NCBI RefSeq assembly: GCF_009914755.1
Contig: NC_060947.1
From: the human T2T-CHM13v2.0 reference genome, Homo sapiens
DNA length: 64,000 nt
Direction: 5' to 3' (one strand)
The position numbers and the translations under genes were made by a program. Under the pieces are notes generated by a model that searched no databases, was not told the origin of the DNA, and worked only from the letters and a program-made list of their open reading frames with translations. Positions within the stretch are counted from its first letter, which is position 1, and every line of letters begins with the position of its first letter. This document shows positions 56,045 through 64,000 of this stretch, one piece after another.

Positions 56045-58185
56045 TCTTTTCACATATTTAAGGAAGTGTGTTAAAGTCTTTATCTAGTACATTTGATGCC
56101 TAATGTCTCTTTTTGGACGATTTCTGTAGATTTATTTTGTTTCTATAAATAGACTATGCTTTTGTGTTTTTTTCTATGACTTGCTATATATTTTTCGAAA
56201 ATTAGGCATTTGAAAAAAAAAAAAATCCCAACCACTTTTTCCAGTCTTTGCAGAATGGCTCCTTGCAGGGATAGACTTTTATTACTTAGCAGGGTACATT
56301 TTTGTCCTTGGGATTGGCCCAGGCAATCCCAGCCTTTGCAGGCCTTTTCTCAGCCTGTATTTCCCCTGAGCTCTTTTTCTCCAATTTCTCCACATATAAT
56401 CAAATTTTATGTGTCTTAGTTTCCCTACGAGTCTCACTGCTGCTTCTTTTTGGGGACATGGCAGTTAAATTGTATTCCCCTACCAATAATCTCCTGCCCT
56501 TGGGGTCTATGGGTCTATAGTCCCCCTGTGGTTTTCATGAGCTGTACTCACTGCTTCTCGTGACTTTTCTTAGCTTGAGATCTGGGCCGTATCAATTTTG
56601 GCCATCTAAGCTCCATTTTAGGTGACAGAAATCAATCCGTCAGGTTGCCCTCAGACAGGTTAGAACATGGAAAATTAGGTCTACTCTTCTCTCTCTGGTT
56701 TGAAGGAGAGCTGGGGACTGAGCCACCTCTTCCCCAAAAGCATGTAACACCAGCAAGGTGTGGGTCAAAGGCAAGTAACAATGTCATGAAATTTCCTAGC
56801 TTTTTGAATGTGACTTTTTCTTCACTGGGCATTTGCTTGGTTTCTATTGATCTCTGACTGATTTCCAGAACTCCTATACAGTTATATAGATTTTAGTAGT
56901 TTCTTTTTAATGTGTTTTATAGGGGAAAGATGGCTTGAATCTTCCCAGTTCACCATTCTTCTTTAAGTTTTTAACTTTTGAAGGATAATTTCACTGGACA
57001 CAAATTTCTAGATTGGGGCTTTTCTACCTTTGATACTTTAAATTTTTGCTTCACTACCTTCCTTCTGGCATGGCTCTGAGAAGTCCAATGTAATTCTTAT
57101 CCTTGCTACTCTAAATTTAAGTTTTCTTCCCCCTCTAAAGCTCCTTTCAATATTTTTTCTTTGTCTTTGATTTTCTGCAGTTTGAATATGATATGCCTAG
57201 GTATGGAGTTTTGGGTATTTATTCTTCTTGGAGTTCTTTGAGCTTCCTAGATCTGTGGTTTGGTGTCTATCATTACCTTTGGGAAATTCTCAGTCATTAT
57301 TGCTTCAAATTTTTCTTCTCTTCATTTTTCTCTTTCTTCTTCTTCTGGTATTGTCATTACATCTTTATGTAATGTTATGCTACACTACATAAAGTTATGT
57401 TACACCTTTTCTAATTGTCCCACATTTCTTGGATATTGTTATGTCTTTCCATTTTTTTTCTTGTTGCATTTCAGCTTAGGAGGGTTCTATTAACATTTCT
57501 TTAAACTCACTGATTTTCTTTTTCCTTGGCCATGCTCAGCCTAATAGTCTATTGGTGAGCCCATCAAAGCCATTCTTCATTTCTATTACATTTGATTTGT
57601 AGCATTTAGTTTTCATTCTTTTTTTTATTATTATACTTTAAGTTTCAGGGTACATGTGCACAATGTGCAGGTTAGTTACATATGTATACATGTGACATGC
57701 TGGTGCGCTGCACCCACTAACTCATCATCTAGCATTAGGTGTATCTCCCAATGCTATCCCTCCCCTCTGCCCCCACCCCACAACAGTCCCCAGAGTGTGA
57801 TGTTCCCCTTCCTGTGTCTATGTTTTCTCATTGTTCAATTTCCACCTATGAGTAAGAATATGCGGTGTTTGGTTTTTTGTTCTTGCGATAGTTTACTGAG
57901 AATGATGATTTCCAATTTCAACCATGTCCCTACAAAGGACATGAAGTCATCATTTTTTATGGCTGCATAGTATTCCATGGTGTATATGTGCCACATTTTC
58001 TTAATCCAGTCTATCATTGTTGGACATTTGGCTTGGTTCCAAGTCTTTGCTATTGTGAATAGTGCCGCAATAAACATACGTGTGCATGTGTCTTCATAGC
58101 GGCATGATTTATAGTCCTTTGGGTCTATACCCAGTAATGGGATGGCTGGGTCAAATGGTATTTCTAGTTCTAGATCCCTGAGGAA

Positions 58186-61100
58186 TCACCACAGTGACTT
58201 CCACAATGGTTGAACTACTTTACAGTCCCACCAACAGTGTAAAAGTGTTCCTATTTCTCCACATCCTCTCCAGCACCTGTTGTTTCCTGACTTTTTAATG
58301 ATTGCCATTCTAACTGGTGTGAGATGATATCTCATTGTGGTTTTGATTTGCATTTCTCTGATGGCCAGTGATGGTGAGCATTTTTTCATGTGTTTTTTGG
58401 CTGCATAAATGTCTTCTTTTGAGAAGTGTCTGTTCATGTCCTTTGCCCACTTTTTGATGGGGTTGTTTGTTTTTTTCTTGTCAATTTGTTTGAGTTCATT
58501 GTAGATTCTGGATATTAGCCCTTTGTGAGATGAGTAGGTTGCGAAAATTTTCTCCCATTTTGTAGGTTGCCTGTTCACTCTGGTGGTAGTTTCTTTTGCT
58601 GTGCAGAAGCTCTTTAGTTTAATTAGATCGCATTTGTCAATTTTGGCTTTTGTTGCCATTGCTTTTGGTGTTTTAGACATGAAGTCCTTGCCCATGCCTA
58701 TGTCCTGAATGGTAATGCCTAGGTTTTCTTCTAGGTTTTTTATGGTTTTAGGTCTAACGTTTAAATATTTAATCCATCTTGAATTGATTTTTGTATAAGG
58801 TGTAAGGAAGGGATCCAGTTTCAGCTTTCTACATATGGCTAGCCAGTTTTCCCAGCACCATTTATTAAATAGGGAATCCTTTCCCCATTGCTTGTGTTTC
58901 TCAGGTTTGTCAAAGATCAGATAGTTGTAGATATGCGGCGTTATTTCTGAGGGCTCTGTTCTGTTCCATTGATCTATATCTCTGTTTTGGTACCAGTACC
59001 ATGCTGTTTTGCTTACTGTAGCCTTGTGGTATAGTTTGAAGTCAGGTAGCGTGATGCCTCCAGCTTTGTTCTTTTGGCTTAGGATTGACTTGGAGATGCG
59101 GGCTCTTTTTTGGTTCCATATGAACTTGAAAGTAGTTTTTTCCAATTCTGTGAAGAAAGTCATTGGTAGCTTGATGGGGATGGCATTGAATCTATAAATT
59201 ACCTTGGGCAGTATGGCCATTTTCACGATATTGATTCTTCCTACCCATGAGCATGGAATGTTCTTCCATTTGTTTGTATCCTCTTTTATTTCATTGAGCA
59301 GTGGTTTGTAGTTCTCCTTGAAGAGGTCCTTCACATCCCTTGTAAGTTGGATTCCTAGGTATTTTATTCTCTTTGAAGCAATTGTGAATGGGAGTTCACC
59401 CATGATTTGGCTCTCTGTTTGTCTGTTGTTGGTGTATAAGAAAGCTTGTGATTTTTGTACATTGATTTTGTATCCTGAGACTTTGCTGAAGTTGCTTATC
59501 AGCTTAAGGAGATTTTGGGCTGAGACGATGGGGTTTTCTAGATAAACAATCATGTCATCTGCAAACAGGGACAATTTGACTTCCTCTTTTCCTAATTGAA
59601 TACCCTTTATTTCCTTCTCCTGCCTGATTGCCCTGGCCAGAACTTCCAACACTATGTTGAATAGGAGCGGTGAGAGAGGGCATCCCTGTCTTGTGCCAGT
59701 TTTCAAAGGGAATGCTTCCAGTTTTTGCCCATTCAGTATGATATTGGCTGTGGGTTTGTCATAGATAGCTCTTATTATTTTGAAATAGGTCCCATCAATA
59801 CCTAATTTATTGAGAGTTTTTAGCATGAAGGGTTGTTGAATTTTGTCAAAGGCTTTTTCTGCATCTATTGAGATAATCATGTGGTTTTTGTCTTTGGCTC
59901 TGTTTATATGCTGGATTACATTTATTGATTTGCGTATATTGAACCAGCCTTGCATCCCAGGGATGAAGCCCACTTGATCATGGTGGATAAGCTTTTTGAT
60001 GTGCTGCTGGATTTGGTTTGCCAGTATTTTATTGAGGATTTTTGCATCAATGTTCATCAAGGATATTGTTCTAAAATTCTCTTTTTTGGTTGTGTCTCTG
60101 CCCGGCTTTGGTATCAGAATGATGCTGGCCTCATAAAATGAGTTAGGGAGGATTCCCTCTTTTTCTATTGATTGGAATAGTTTCAGAAGGAATGGTACCA
60201 GTTCCTCCTTGTACCTCTGGTAGAATTCGGCTGTGAATCCATCTGGTCCTGGACTCTTTTTGGTTGGTAAACTATTGATTATTGCCACAATTTCAGAGCC
60301 TGTTATTGGTCTATTCAGAGATTCAACTTCTTCCTGGTTTAGTCTTGGGAGAGTGTATGTGTCGAGGAATGTATCCATTTCTTCTAGATTTTCTAGTTTA
60401 TTTGCGTAGAGGTGTTTGTAGTATTCTCTGATGGTAGTTTGTATTTCTGTGGGATCGGTGGTGATATCCCCTTTATCATTTTTTATTGTGTCTATTTGAT
60501 TCTTCTCTCTTTTTTTCTTTATTAGTCTTGCTAGCGGTCTATCAATTTTGTTGATCCTTTCAAAAAACCAGCTCCTGGATTCATTGATTTTTTGAAGGGT
60601 TTTTTGTGTCTCTATTTCCTTCAGTTCTGCTCTGATTTTAGTTATTTCTTGCCTTCTGCTAGCTTTTGAATGTGTTTGCTCTTGCTTTTCTAGTTCTTTT
60701 AATTGTGATGTTAGGGTGTCAATTTTGGATCTTTCCTGCTTTCTCTTGTAGGCATTTAGTGCTATAAATTTCCCTCTACACACTGCTTTGAATGCGTCCC
60801 AGAGATTCTGGTATGTGGTGTCTTTGTTCTCGTTGGTTTCAAAGAACATCTTTATTTCTGCCTTCATTTCGTTATGTACCCAGTAGTCATTCAGGAGCAG
60901 GTTGTTCAGTTTCCATGTAGTTGAGCGGCTTTGAGTGAGATTCTTAATCCTGAGTTCTAGTTTGATTGCACTGTGGTCTGAGAGATAGTTTGTTATAATT
61001 TCTGTTCTTTTACATTTGCTGAGGAGAGCTTTACTTCCAACTATGTGGTCAATTTTGGAATAGGTGTGGTGTGGTGCTGAAAAAAATGTATATTCTATTG

Positions 61101-63197: not shown

Positions 63198-63380
63198 ATG
63201 GCGGGCGCCCCTCCCCCAGCCTCGTTGCCGCCTTGCAGTTTGATCTCAGACTGCTGTGCTAGCAATCAGCGAGATTCCGTGGGCGTAGGACCCTCTGAGC
63301 CAGGTGTGGGATATAGTCTCGTGGTGCGCCGTTTCTTAAGCCGGTCTGAAAAGCGCAATATTCGGGTGGGAGTGACCTGA
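63198..63380 (+). CDS. L1 antisense ORF0, truncated to 60 aa
   Basis: MAGAPPPASLPPCSLISDCC...IRVGVT then TGA; canonical ORF0 continues RFSRC... to 71 aa. Confidence 0.75.
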   Translation: MAGAPPPASLPPCSLISDCCASNQRDSVGVGPSEPGVGYSLVVRRFLSRSEKRNIRVGVT

Positions 63381-64000
63381 TTTTCCAGGTGCGTCCGTCA
63401 CCCCTTTCTTTGACTCGGAAAGGGAACTCCCTGACCCCTTGCGCTTCCCAGGTGAGGCAATGCCTCGCCCTGCTTCGGCTCGCGCACGGTGCGCACACAC
63501 ACTGGCCTGCGCCCACTGTCTGGCACTCCCTAGTGAGATGAACCCGGTACCTCAGATGGAAATGCAGAAATCACCCGTCTTCTGCGTCGCTCACGCTGGG
63601 AGCTGTAGACCGGAGCTGTTCCTATTCGGCCATCTTGGCTCCTCCCCCTCCTTTTTGAATCTTTTTATGATGGCAGTTTTAAAATCCTAGTAATTCCAAC
63701 ATCTGATTTATCTCAGTGTTAACGTTACTCGATTGTCTTTTCTTAAATTGTGAGTTTTCTATTATATCCTGGACATTTTGTCTATTCTGTTAGGAGTCTC
63801 TATTTAAACTTTCTATTTTAGCAGGCAGTCATCTTGTTTAGCCGTAGCATGCAGATCCTCTCCTACTTTTGTCAGCTATCATTCCAGGGAAGTTGTTTTT
63901 GAAAGCTTTTGGTGCTGTTTTGGTCTGATTGGTTTGTCTGTTGCCACTGGGGTTCCTCCTGTTTTCTGCTTGTGCTGCCTAAGGGGAGCAGAAATGGTTT

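What the first reader, a model, noticed from the sequence alone, without database searches (positions are those of the whole stretch)
57619..63648. Full-length L1 is a young/old chimera with a sharp junction at ~59293-59400 and no clear TSD
Seen: 5' UTR, ORF1 and the first ~760 aa of ORF2 carry residues I recall as L1HS-diagnostic ([41 protein letters not shown] at 59400), with few private changes. From 59293 leftward the alleles are older (LLNE, ATCTATAAATT, EITPH, IGMG, PTKW, CSPS; 3' UTR GATGAGTTAG rather than Ta ACA). Private substitutions also become dense there (TTFK, RISK, LYHK, VSK, EKHK, IKYL, DKCD, TTTR, SSHK, QIDK, CKVV, stop). The A tail is only ~8 nt and the flanks share at best a low-complexity AAAAAGGA/AAAAAGAA. 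Inference: homologous recombination between a human-specific L1HS and a resident same-orientation L1PA2/3, deleting intervening DNA. Gene conversion or RT template switching are alternatives. Insertion-mediated chimeras usually have the opposite polarity (young 3' end).
Basis: partly seen in the sequence, partly recalled or inferred. Interest (0 to 1): 0.8.

Follow-up and report, generated by a model that had tools for sequence, protein, structure and literature searches.

The report
Two-age chimeric full-length L1 element
This full-length human L1 retrotransposon really is a splice of a young human-specific front (about 4.3 kb) onto the old, decayed tail (about 1.7 kb) of a much earlier L1 at the same site, a known kind of repeat-against-repeat recombination product rather than a new phenomenon.

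Summary
Observation confirmed. The minus-strand L1 at 57619-63648 has two ages. Against solved L1HS ORF2p sequences it differs at 4 of 789 residues up to aa 789 and at 33 of 486 after that. Against 58 other genomic copies, the 5' part differs from the L1HS-like majority at 9 of 3300 sites and the 3' part at 35 of 1394. Subfamily-informative sites are 11 of 11 young down to 59400 and old from 59278 on. Trees place the two halves in different clades. The junction lies in 59279-59399.

The old part has no near-identical source elsewhere in this genome, so it aged in place. The young tract runs to the 5' terminus.

Both flanks belong to one ancient repeat, co-linear, with only about 50-75 bp missing. 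Any deleted intervening DNA was therefore tiny.

Best reading (0.45): an L1HS inserted just upstream of a resident L1PA2/3-grade element, and the two direct repeats then collapsed by homologous recombination. Rivals are RNA/cDNA-templated repair (0.2) and gene conversion (0.15).

Recombinant full-length L1 loci are already reported as a class. Interest is modest.

The parts
59400..63648 (-). Young (L1HS-grade) part: 5' UTR (62743-63648), intact ORF1 (61726-62742) and ORF2 codons 1 to about 754.
   Evidence: In 59400-62600, 8 private sites of 3201 (0.25%). 11 of 11 informative sites carry the young state. It nests in the L1HS-like clade with support 0.90 and a terminal branch of 0.0033. The 5' UTR carries young states from 63505 inward, and there are no substitutions against L072 in the first 143 bp.
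59279..59399 (-). Junction interval, in register within ORF2 (codons about 755-794). No informative site lies inside it.
   Evidence: Bounded by the young state at 59400 and the old state at 59278. The private change at 59293 lies inside it.
57629..59278 (-). Old (L1PA2/3-grade) part: ORF2 codons about 795-1275 and the 3' UTR.
   Evidence: In 57620-59292, 28 private sites of 1673 (1.67%). 10 of 13 informative sites are old, plus 59278. It nests in the clade of the 15 oldest panel copies with support 0.95 and a terminal branch of 0.0179. The best other genomic copy is 97% identical.
58186..58188 (-). Premature TGA at ORF2 codon 1159. It lies in the old part.
   Evidence: 55 of 58 panel copies carry C at 58188, so this is a CpG-type change.
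57621..57628 (-). A tail of 8 A. Part of it may be target-derived T run.
   Evidence: Family copies have a run of 5-6 T at the equivalent place. Old panel copies caught by my pattern have pure A runs of 0-11.
63649..63666 (+). First 18 nt of the upstream flank, TCCTTTTTGAATCTTTTT, followed by AT. Candidate target-site duplication of the L1HS insertion, ending at an endonuclease-type TTTTT/AT site.
   Evidence: TTTT/A sites occur after positions 18, 32 and 171 only in 352 nt of this flank. Bases 4 onward align to the ancient-repeat copies L064, L065 and L066.
57200..57620 (+). Downstream flank of the L1: ancient interspersed repeat.
   Evidence: Other copies are 67-72% identical over most or all of the query, from 1221 first-look candidates. 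L061, L062 and L063 align up to base 57618.
63649..64000 (+). Upstream flank of the L1: the same ancient repeat, same orientation, resuming about 50-75 bp further along the family.
   Evidence: L067 carries both flank homologies in order and in the same orientation. L066 links to the left flank through L061. See also the alignment and the 74-base gap in L067.

Best explanation
Two L1 insertions of different age were fused in register at one genomic site.

1. Shown: an L1PA2/3-grade element sat here long enough to collect about 1.7% private substitutions, including the stop at ORF2 codon 1159. Its 3' end abuts an endonuclease-type T run in an ancient repeat.
2. Shown: the 5' 4.25-4.37 kb, from the 5' terminus to 59279-59399, is L1HS-grade with about 0.25-0.3% private change.
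3. Inferred: an L1HS inserted by ordinary target-primed reverse transcription in the same orientation, about 50-75 bp upstream of the resident, at the TTTTT/AT site that now lies 18 nt from the 5' end.
4. Inferred: the two direct repeats then collapsed by homologous recombination or single-strand annealing, either during integration or later in the germ line. This removed the L1HS 3' end with its A tail, the short spacer with one copy of each target duplication, and whatever 5' part the resident had.

The product has a young promoter and an intact ORF1, but an ORF2 that ends 117 codons early.
For: - Two ages and two lineages with one sharp switch.
- The old part aged in place. The best other copy is 97% identical, among 40 scored of 10877 candidates. 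A 41-nt word with three private sites matches only this locus exactly. The one near match, L073, shares 3 of 17 private sites. Older in-window L1PA copies do not carry the element's state at 10 of the 14 private sites they cover.
- The young tract reaches the 5' terminus, as expected if it is the natural front of an inserted L1HS.
- The flanks are co-linear pieces of one ancient repeat with about 50-75 bp missing and no clean duplication, as expected if each flank keeps the duplication of a different insertion.
- The upstream flank's first 18 nt end in TTTTT/AT, one of only 3 such sites in 352 nt.
- This flank aligns to three of four family copies from its base 4.
- Homology-driven recombination of L1 intermediates with other DNA is shown experimentally in PMC13526784 (passages).
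Against: - It needs an L1HS to have landed within about 75 bp of an older L1 in the same orientation, which is a priori rare. My estimate of well under one such event per genome is my own rough arithmetic, not a tool result.
- The 12-of-14 repeat at the two ends (TTTTCATTCTTTTT / TTTTGAATCTTTTT) is matched by only 0.9% of composition-matched shuffles and by 0 of 5000 random flank pairs. The two family segments concerned resemble each other at only 8-11 of 14 in five copies. It could therefore be a decayed duplication of a single insertion, which would favour gene conversion.
- The size of the missing stretch rests on two spanning copies that are about 30% diverged (L066 indirectly, L067 directly) and on one multiple alignment.
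- No outgroup or population data were available.
Confidence: 0.45

Rival explanations
1. RNA- or cDNA-templated repair. A break or nick inside (or at the 5' edge of) a resident, probably 5'-truncated, L1PA2/3 exposed an antisense 3' end. That end paired in register with an L1HS transcript and was extended by reverse transcriptase to the RNA's 5' end. The new end was then joined to the other side of the break with loss of about 50-75 bp.
For: - The polarity is right and the young tract ends at the canonical L1 5' terminus.
- There is no clean duplication, and a small target loss is present. These are traits of non-classical L1 insertions, of which 18 of 21 carry deletions and 3 of 21 lie in pre-existing L1s (Sen et al. 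2007, PMC1920257, passages).
- Homology between L1 cDNA and broken DNA promotes joining (PMC13526784, passages).
Against: - The endonuclease-type TTTTT/AT site exactly 18 nt from the 5' junction is unexplained here. By my own reckoning from the site density, the chance is about 0.1.
- It requires the resident's own 5' remainder and duplication to be removed in the same event.
- I found no in-register case of this polarity in the papers I could search.
Confidence: 0.2
2. Interlocus gene conversion. A single full-length L1PA2/3 inserted here, and its 5' 4.3 kb was later overwritten from an L1HS elsewhere, with the flanks untouched.
For: - The flanks are co-linear in one ancient repeat.
- The 12-of-14 repeat at the ends could be the old element's decayed duplication.
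- No large deletion is needed.
- Conversion of resident L1s by L1HS has been reported (Myers 2002, Vincent 2003; recalled, not read here).
Against: - The tract would have to be 4.25-4.37 kb long and reach to within 143 bp of the 5' terminus. That stretch has no substitution against an L1HS-like copy, whereas three old copies have 3-7 each.
- There is no patchiness: 11 of 11 sites are young.
- If the 14-mer is a duplication, the ancient repeat must also have lost about 65-85 bp exactly beside it, and the flank's alignment to family copies from base 4 must be chance.
- Two mismatches in 14 have a probability of about 0.08 at the old part's divergence.
- No copy in this genome shares the young part's private changes. 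The best hits are about 6 mismatches off, so no donor is identifiable.
Confidence: 0.15
3. A chimera made elsewhere, by RT template switching between an old and a young L1 RNA or by retrotransposition of an existing chimeric locus, and inserted here as one young event.
For: Template switching by the L1 RT is known (Sen et al. 2007, passages).
Against: - The old part's 28 private changes would have to come from a source copy. None exists in this genome above 97%. The three-site word is unique at 0 mismatches. L073 shares only 3 of 17 private sites.
- There is no clean duplication and only a short A tail.
Confidence: 0.03
4. No chimera: a uniform element of one subfamily, with the reader misremembering diagnostic residues, or an assembly artefact.
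For: None from my calls.
Against: The step is seen independently in protein, DNA identity, informative sites, private-site density and trees. I had no read-level data to test the assembly.
Confidence: 0.02

Closest known systems
L1 recombination-associated deletions (Han et al. 2008, PNAS; recalled, the paper is not held)
   Same: A single chimeric L1 left by homologous recombination between two same-orientation L1s, joined in register, with flanks that carry different target duplications.
   Different: Here one partner is a human-specific L1HS. The unique DNA lost is at most about 75 bp, so the two elements were nearly abutting. The ancestral two-element state is not shown.
Recombinant full-length young L1 loci in the HPRC pangenome preprint (PMC13192797; passages read)
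   Same: Full-length L1HS/L1PA2/L1PA3-class loci whose sequence resolves into two donor groups with a consistent breakpoint. 35 of 2267 loci were called high-confidence or probable recombinants.
   Different: The passages I read give no mechanism and no flank analysis. Here the two parts also differ in age, not only in lineage.
Gene conversion of resident older L1s by L1HS (Myers et al. 2002; Vincent et al. 2003; recalled, not read)
   Same: An old element at a fixed site carries a block of L1HS sequence.
   Different: As I recall them, the reported cases were found through the 3' UTR. Here the 3' end is the unconverted part, and the young block spans 4.3 kb to the 5' terminus.
Non-classical (endonuclease-independent) L1 insertion (Sen et al. 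2007, PMC1920257; passages read)
   Same: An L1 piece without its own 3' end or A tail, no clean duplication, and a small loss of target DNA.
   Different: An endonuclease-type site sits at the expected distance from the 5' junction. The junction with the resident L1 is in register over kilobases of homology rather than at microhomology.
Chimeric L1s formed at insertion in cultured cells (Gilbert et al. 2002, 2005; Symer et al. 2002; recalled, not read)
   Same: A new L1 fused in register to an endogenous L1, with deletion of what lay between them.
   Different: As recalled, those have the endogenous element at the 5' side and the new one at the 3' side. Here the polarity is the reverse.

Membership tests
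L1HS (human-specific L1), full-length copy | Full L1 architecture: 5' UTR, ORF1, ORF2, 3' UTR and A tail | tested here: met
   ORF1 has 338 aa. ORF2 has 1275 codons, with one stop at codon 1159.
L1HS (human-specific L1), full-length copy | L1HS-grade states and low divergence along the whole length, including the 3' UTR | tested here: not met
   Met only from 59400 to 63648. From 59278 to the 3' end the states are old and private change is 1.67%. The 3' UTR reads TGAG at the site where, by recall, Ta has ACA and pre-Ta has ACG.
L1 recombination-associated deletion product | One L1 made of two parts of different origin, joined in register | tested here: met
   ORF2 stays in frame across 59279-59399.
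L1 recombination-associated deletion product | Flanking target duplications do not match | tested here: inconclusive
   A 12-of-14 repeat is present. Against that, the upstream flank aligns to ancient-repeat copies from its base 4.
L1 recombination-associated deletion product | An outgroup or other haplotype carries two L1s with the intervening DNA | not testable with these tools
   No ape or pangenome sequence is held (one search states that the genome has no relatives here).
Interlocus gene conversion of a resident L1 | Flanks and duplication of a single insertion retained | tested here: inconclusive
   The flanks are co-linear, but about 50-75 bp of the ancient repeat is missing and the duplication is doubtful.
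Interlocus gene conversion of a resident L1 | Converted tract lies within the element, with old sequence on both sides | tested here: not met
   No old-state site or old-level divergence remains at the 5' end. Young states run from 63505 inward, and there are 0 substitutions in the first 143 bp.
Non-classical (endonuclease-independent) L1 insertion | No target duplication, loss of target DNA, and an inserted piece lacking its own A tail | tested here: inconclusive
   The target loss and the missing young 3' end fit. The duplication question is open.
Non-classical (endonuclease-independent) L1 insertion | Insertion site departs from the L1 endonuclease motif | tested here: not met
   TTTTT/AT lies 18 nt from the 5' junction. 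At the 3' junction a T run follows CATTC.
Recombinant full-length L1 loci (PMC13192797) | The sequence resolves into two donor groups with a consistent breakpoint | tested here: met
   Shown with my own panel of 58 copies and two trees, not with their 3SEQ/BOOTSCAN pipeline.

The most novel reading that the evidence does not exclude
The young front was not a separate insertion. It was written onto the stump of a dead, 5'-truncated L1 by reverse transcription of an L1HS transcript, primed in register from the stump's own antisense strand at a break. In that reading, L1 RNA acts as a homology-guided repair template that rebuilds a promoter-bearing, ORF1-intact full-length element from a fossil fragment. 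Such events would be invisible to standard repeat annotation.
Probability: 0.2. Interest if true: 0.55.

Novelty: new member of a known kind. Interest (0 to 1): 0.3.

Why it matters
- **Annotation.** Two-age L1 chimeras distort subfamily annotation and age estimates. This element would be dated very differently from its 5' and 3' ends. Such chimeras can also mislead counts of 'human-specific' full-length L1s.
- **Method.** This locus shows that an interrupted older repeat can bound the DNA lost in such an event without any outgroup genome.
- **Biology.** A young promoter with an intact ORF1 now drives an ORF2 that stops 117 codons early in the old part. The locus could therefore still be transcribed and make ORF1p without being autonomous.
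- **Mechanism.** If the RNA-templated reading were right, it would add a route by which fossil L1 fragments regain promoters.

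Tried and rejected
- **Viral contig scan.** A scan with the ORF2 C-terminal part found no relative.
- **Translation with the stop.** I repeated it with TGA read as X.
- **First test of flank contiguity.** Three copies of the left-flank family did not align to the right flank by BLAST. 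Smith-Waterman scores against L061 and L062 were no better than shuffles (19.0 and 25.5 against shuffled means of 20.4 and 21.5). My by-eye homology there was therefore dropped. Contiguity was shown only after I fetched copies found with the right flank.
- **Pairwise end mapping.** It was unreliable for weakly aligning copies (scores near 80). Only L067 gave a usable direct figure of 74 bases. An earlier column-mapping script failed.
- **Are the 'private' sites really states of a still older subfamily?** A 41-nt word with three such sites gave 72 matches at up to 2 mismatches, which raised this suspicion. I rejected it for most sites. Older in-window L1PA copies share the element's state at only 4 of the 14 sites they cover (58032, 57769, 57766, 57646). 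The closest word match, L073, shares 3 of 17 private sites.
- **Does the ancient repeat's own internal similarity explain the 12-of-14 end repeat?** It does not. Five family copies give 8-11 of 14, in other registers.
- **Short A tail as evidence of an odd 3' junction.** Rejected. Old panel copies have similar tails, though my pattern caught only 10 of the 29 panel copies.
- **Literature.**
  - Han et al. 2008 is not held.
  - A search for ASB12, MTMR8, L1HS and LINE-1 (at least 3 of the 4 terms) found 0 papers.
- **Genome letters.** The 5' UTR comparison therefore rests on 3 old copies and 1 usable young copy (L072). The second young copy, L071, aligned for only about 60 bases.

Full report
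**What is there**

The element lies on the minus strand from about 63648 (5' end) to 57629. It is followed by eight A (57621-57628) and then the flank. ORF1 is intact at 338 aa (61726-62742). ORF2 starts at 61662, is open for 1158 codons, and hits a TGA at 58186-58188. It stays in frame for the remaining 116 codons to 57835.

**The step is real**

*Protein.* Solved human L1 ORF2p chains (8uw3, 9k6g, 9hdo and others) served as an L1HS reference that a tool supplied.
- The element differs at residues 5, 189, 532 and 550 only in aa 1-789.
- It differs at 33 positions in aa 790-1275, the stop included.
- Fisher p = 9e-11.
- Residue 5 is not a private change at DNA level, because the genomic L1HS-like copies agree with the element there.

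*DNA.* The window's own genome could be searched.
- The 1701 bases 59400-61100 have dozens of copies about six mismatches away (3037 of 3068 bits; 40 of 3331 candidates scored).
- The 1674 bases 57619-59292 have nothing better than 97% (40 of 10877 candidates scored).
- With the flanks kept by the tool, the two hit sets gave 29 L1HS-like copies (set B, L032-L060) and 29 copies nearest the 3' part (set A, L002-L030). They overlap over 57900-60790.
- In 200-base windows, identity to set B is 98.5-100% from 62500 to 59301 and 96-98% below that.
- The element departs from at least 80% of set B at 9 of 3300 sites in 59301-62600 and at 35 of 1394 sites in 57900-59293 (p = 9e-12).

**Lineage as well as age changes**

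- Set A sorts into an old group (15 copies), a middle group (8) and a young group (6, two of them with the ACG form of the 3' UTR).
- At sites where the old group and set B each agree internally at 70% or more but differ from each other, the element is young at 11 of 11 sites from 60750 to 59400.
- It is old at 10 of 13 sites from 59095 to 57908.
- Of the three exceptions, 58765 carries the middle-group state. 58327 and 58062 are sites where the old group is itself split, and 58062 is a CpG.
- Site 59278 is T, as in 25 of 29 set A copies and no set B copy.
- Maximum-likelihood trees agree. In 59400-60790 the element sits inside a clade of 27 set B copies (support 0.90, terminal branch 0.0033). 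In 57900-59278 it sits inside the clade of the 15 old copies (support 0.95, terminal branch 0.0179).

**Ages**

- Private sites, meaning sites that differ from at least 90% of all 58 copies, number 8 of 3201 (0.25%) in 59400-62600 and 28 of 1673 (1.67%) in 57620-59292 (p = 1e-7).
- For comparison, over 57900-59292 set B copies have a median of 0.15%, the middle group 0.65% and the old group 1.01% (range 0.57-1.36). The element has 1.44% there.
- The panel copies were picked as best matches, so they are biased toward low divergence.
- With neutral rates that I recall (about 0.1-0.17% per million years), the front is roughly 1.5-3 million years old and the tail roughly 10-17 million. That puts them after and before the human-chimpanzee split. 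It is an inference, not a measurement.
- The names L1PA2 and L1PA3 are by grade only, because no curated subfamily reference was available.

**The old part aged here**

A chimera imported by retrotransposition would leave a source that carries the same private changes.
- None scores above 97%.
- A 41-nt word holding three private sites is unique at 0 mismatches among 72 matches at up to 2.
- The one copy at 1 mismatch, L073, is a 700-base fragment that is 95.3% identical and shares 3 of 17 private sites.
- Older L1PA fragments in the window share the element's state at only 4 of the 14 private sites they cover. Most of these sites are therefore not states of a still older subfamily.

**The young tract reaches the 5' end**

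- Three old-group copies and one usable set B copy (L072) were fetched for the 5' UTR. A second set B copy, L071, aligned for only about 60 bases.
- The element has the young state at every site where all three old copies differ from L072, from 63505 inward.
- In the first 143 bases it has no substitution against L072, while the old copies have 3, 5 and 7.
- An earlier hit of L059 to 63422-63649 at 99.6% agrees.

**The flanks**

- Both flanks are ancient repeat sequence, with other copies 66-72% identical over most of the query.
- L061, L062 and L063 align to the left flank right up to 57618 and then continue, homologous to one another.
- L064-L067 align to the right flank, three of the four from its base 4.
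- L067 holds both homologies in order and in the same orientation. L066 links to the left-flank copies through L061.
- The two flanks are therefore neighbouring pieces of one ancient element.
- Between the left flank's end and the right flank's start, the spanning copies have about 50 bases (L066, by transitive alignment), 74 bases (L067) or 48-72 bases (multiple alignment).
- Long-range recombination with loss of substantial unique DNA is excluded.

**Is there a target duplication?**

- The ends carry TTTTCATTCTTTTT and TTTTGAATCTTTTT, a 12-of-14 match.
- That score is reached by 0 of 5000 random pairs of flank pieces and by 0.9% of composition-matched shuffles.
- The two family segments involved match each other at only 8-11 of 14 in five copies. 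The repeat is therefore not trivially explained.
- Against a true duplication: the right-hand copy is part of a stretch that aligns without a break to family copies from base 4 (21 of 23 to L065 by my reading).
- A true duplication would also need an independent loss of about 65-85 bp exactly beside it.
- Two mismatches in 14 have a probability of about 0.08 at this divergence.
- Both 14-mers end in the T run that the L1 endonuclease prefers, which alone forces five or six of the matches.
- The right flank's first 18 nt end at TTTTT/AT, one of only three TTTT/A sites in 352 nt.
- I read this as the duplication of a second, separate insertion.

**Mechanism**

Three routes give a young 5' and an old 3' part at one site.

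1. *Tandem insertion then collapse.* An L1HS inserts just upstream of the resident, and the direct repeats recombine or anneal. This explains the natural 5' terminus, the endonuclease site at 18 nt, the missing spacer and the lack of a clean duplication. Its cost is the rarity of such close tandem insertion.
2. *RNA- or cDNA-templated repair.* Reverse transcription is primed in register from the resident's antisense strand at a break. This also explains the 5' terminus and the small loss, and it has support in kind from Sen et al. 2007 and from PMC13526784. It does not explain the endonuclease site.
3. *Gene conversion of a full-length resident.* This needs no second insertion, but it needs a 4.3 kb unbroken tract that ends within 143 bp of the terminus. 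It also needs either a rare insertion without duplication (about 2% of classical human-specific insertions delete target DNA, as cited) or the coincidences listed above.

My odds are 0.45, 0.2 and 0.15. They rest partly on rough priors of my own. Only outgroup or population data can settle the matter.

**Known or new**

- Recombinant full-length young L1 loci are already reported as a class: 35 of 2267 loci in the HPRC preprint.
- L1-L1 recombination deletions and L1 gene conversion are in the older literature (recalled; Han 2008 is not held).
- A search for this locus by neighbouring gene names found nothing.
- I file it as a new member of a known kind.

**Seen in passing**

- The old part's private changes have an odd spectrum. 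11 of 28 are transitions and 8 of 28 are G<->C transversions. The corresponding figures for 398 singleton changes in the panel are 244 and 36.
- Fisher p = 0.03 and 0.004 respectively. These tests are post hoc, and several panel copies are individually similar.
- There is no clear strand bias. By my count, with 59293 added, 12 changes are at G and 7 at C on the sense strand.

Noticed in passing
window 57620-59293 (old part of the L1): The private substitutions have an unusual spectrum. 8 of 28 are G<->C transversions and only 11 of 28 are transitions. The figures for 398 singleton changes in the 58 panel copies are 36 and 244 (p = 0.004 and 0.03, post hoc). This could be noise, a regional trait, or a trace of repair-linked mutagenesis.
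   Followed up: partly
window 61726-63648: The young part keeps a 5' UTR with only three private changes (63377, 63296, 63165). All three are CpG-type G-to-A changes. It also keeps an intact 338-aa ORF1 with two private residue changes, at codons 307 and 328. The locus may still be transcribed and make ORF1p although ORF2 is cut short.
   Followed up: no
L028 (G000:C12:101110619-101115292): An L1 3' end is followed at once, with no A tail, by a second same-orientation L1 segment that starts in ORF2 (locus 3172-4674 matches element 60700-59198 at 97.7%). This is an example of abutting same-orientation L1s.
   Followed up: no
L059 (G000:C6:153910463-153915163) and L005 (G000:C2:236925742-236930413): L059 is an L1HS-like copy with an internal deletion that joins the equivalents of 61188 and 63422. 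L005 is an old-group copy whose 5' segment is inverted at the equivalent of 59348.
   Followed up: no
window 36222-36799, 55441-55725, 38640-52739: Other L1 fragments lie in the window. Two are older L1PA 3' ends (91.9% and 90.2% identical to the element's 3' end). There is also a series of pieces, all but one in minus orientation, that are 68-77% identical and together look like one old L1. The ancient repeat flanking the chimera may be a further part of that element; I did not test this.
   Followed up: partly
window 57207-57362: The first 160 bases or so of my left-flank query match many loci at 79-84%. That is much better than the 67-72% of the rest of the flank, so a second, younger repeat probably lies there.
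   Followed up: no
L071 (G000:C15:68551944-68552644, 5' side of L032): This L1HS-like copy aligns to the element's 5' UTR for only about 60 bases from the 5' end. Upstream of it lies sequence that reads like an old L1 ORF2. Its 5' UTR may hold a deletion or a rearrangement.
   Followed up: no
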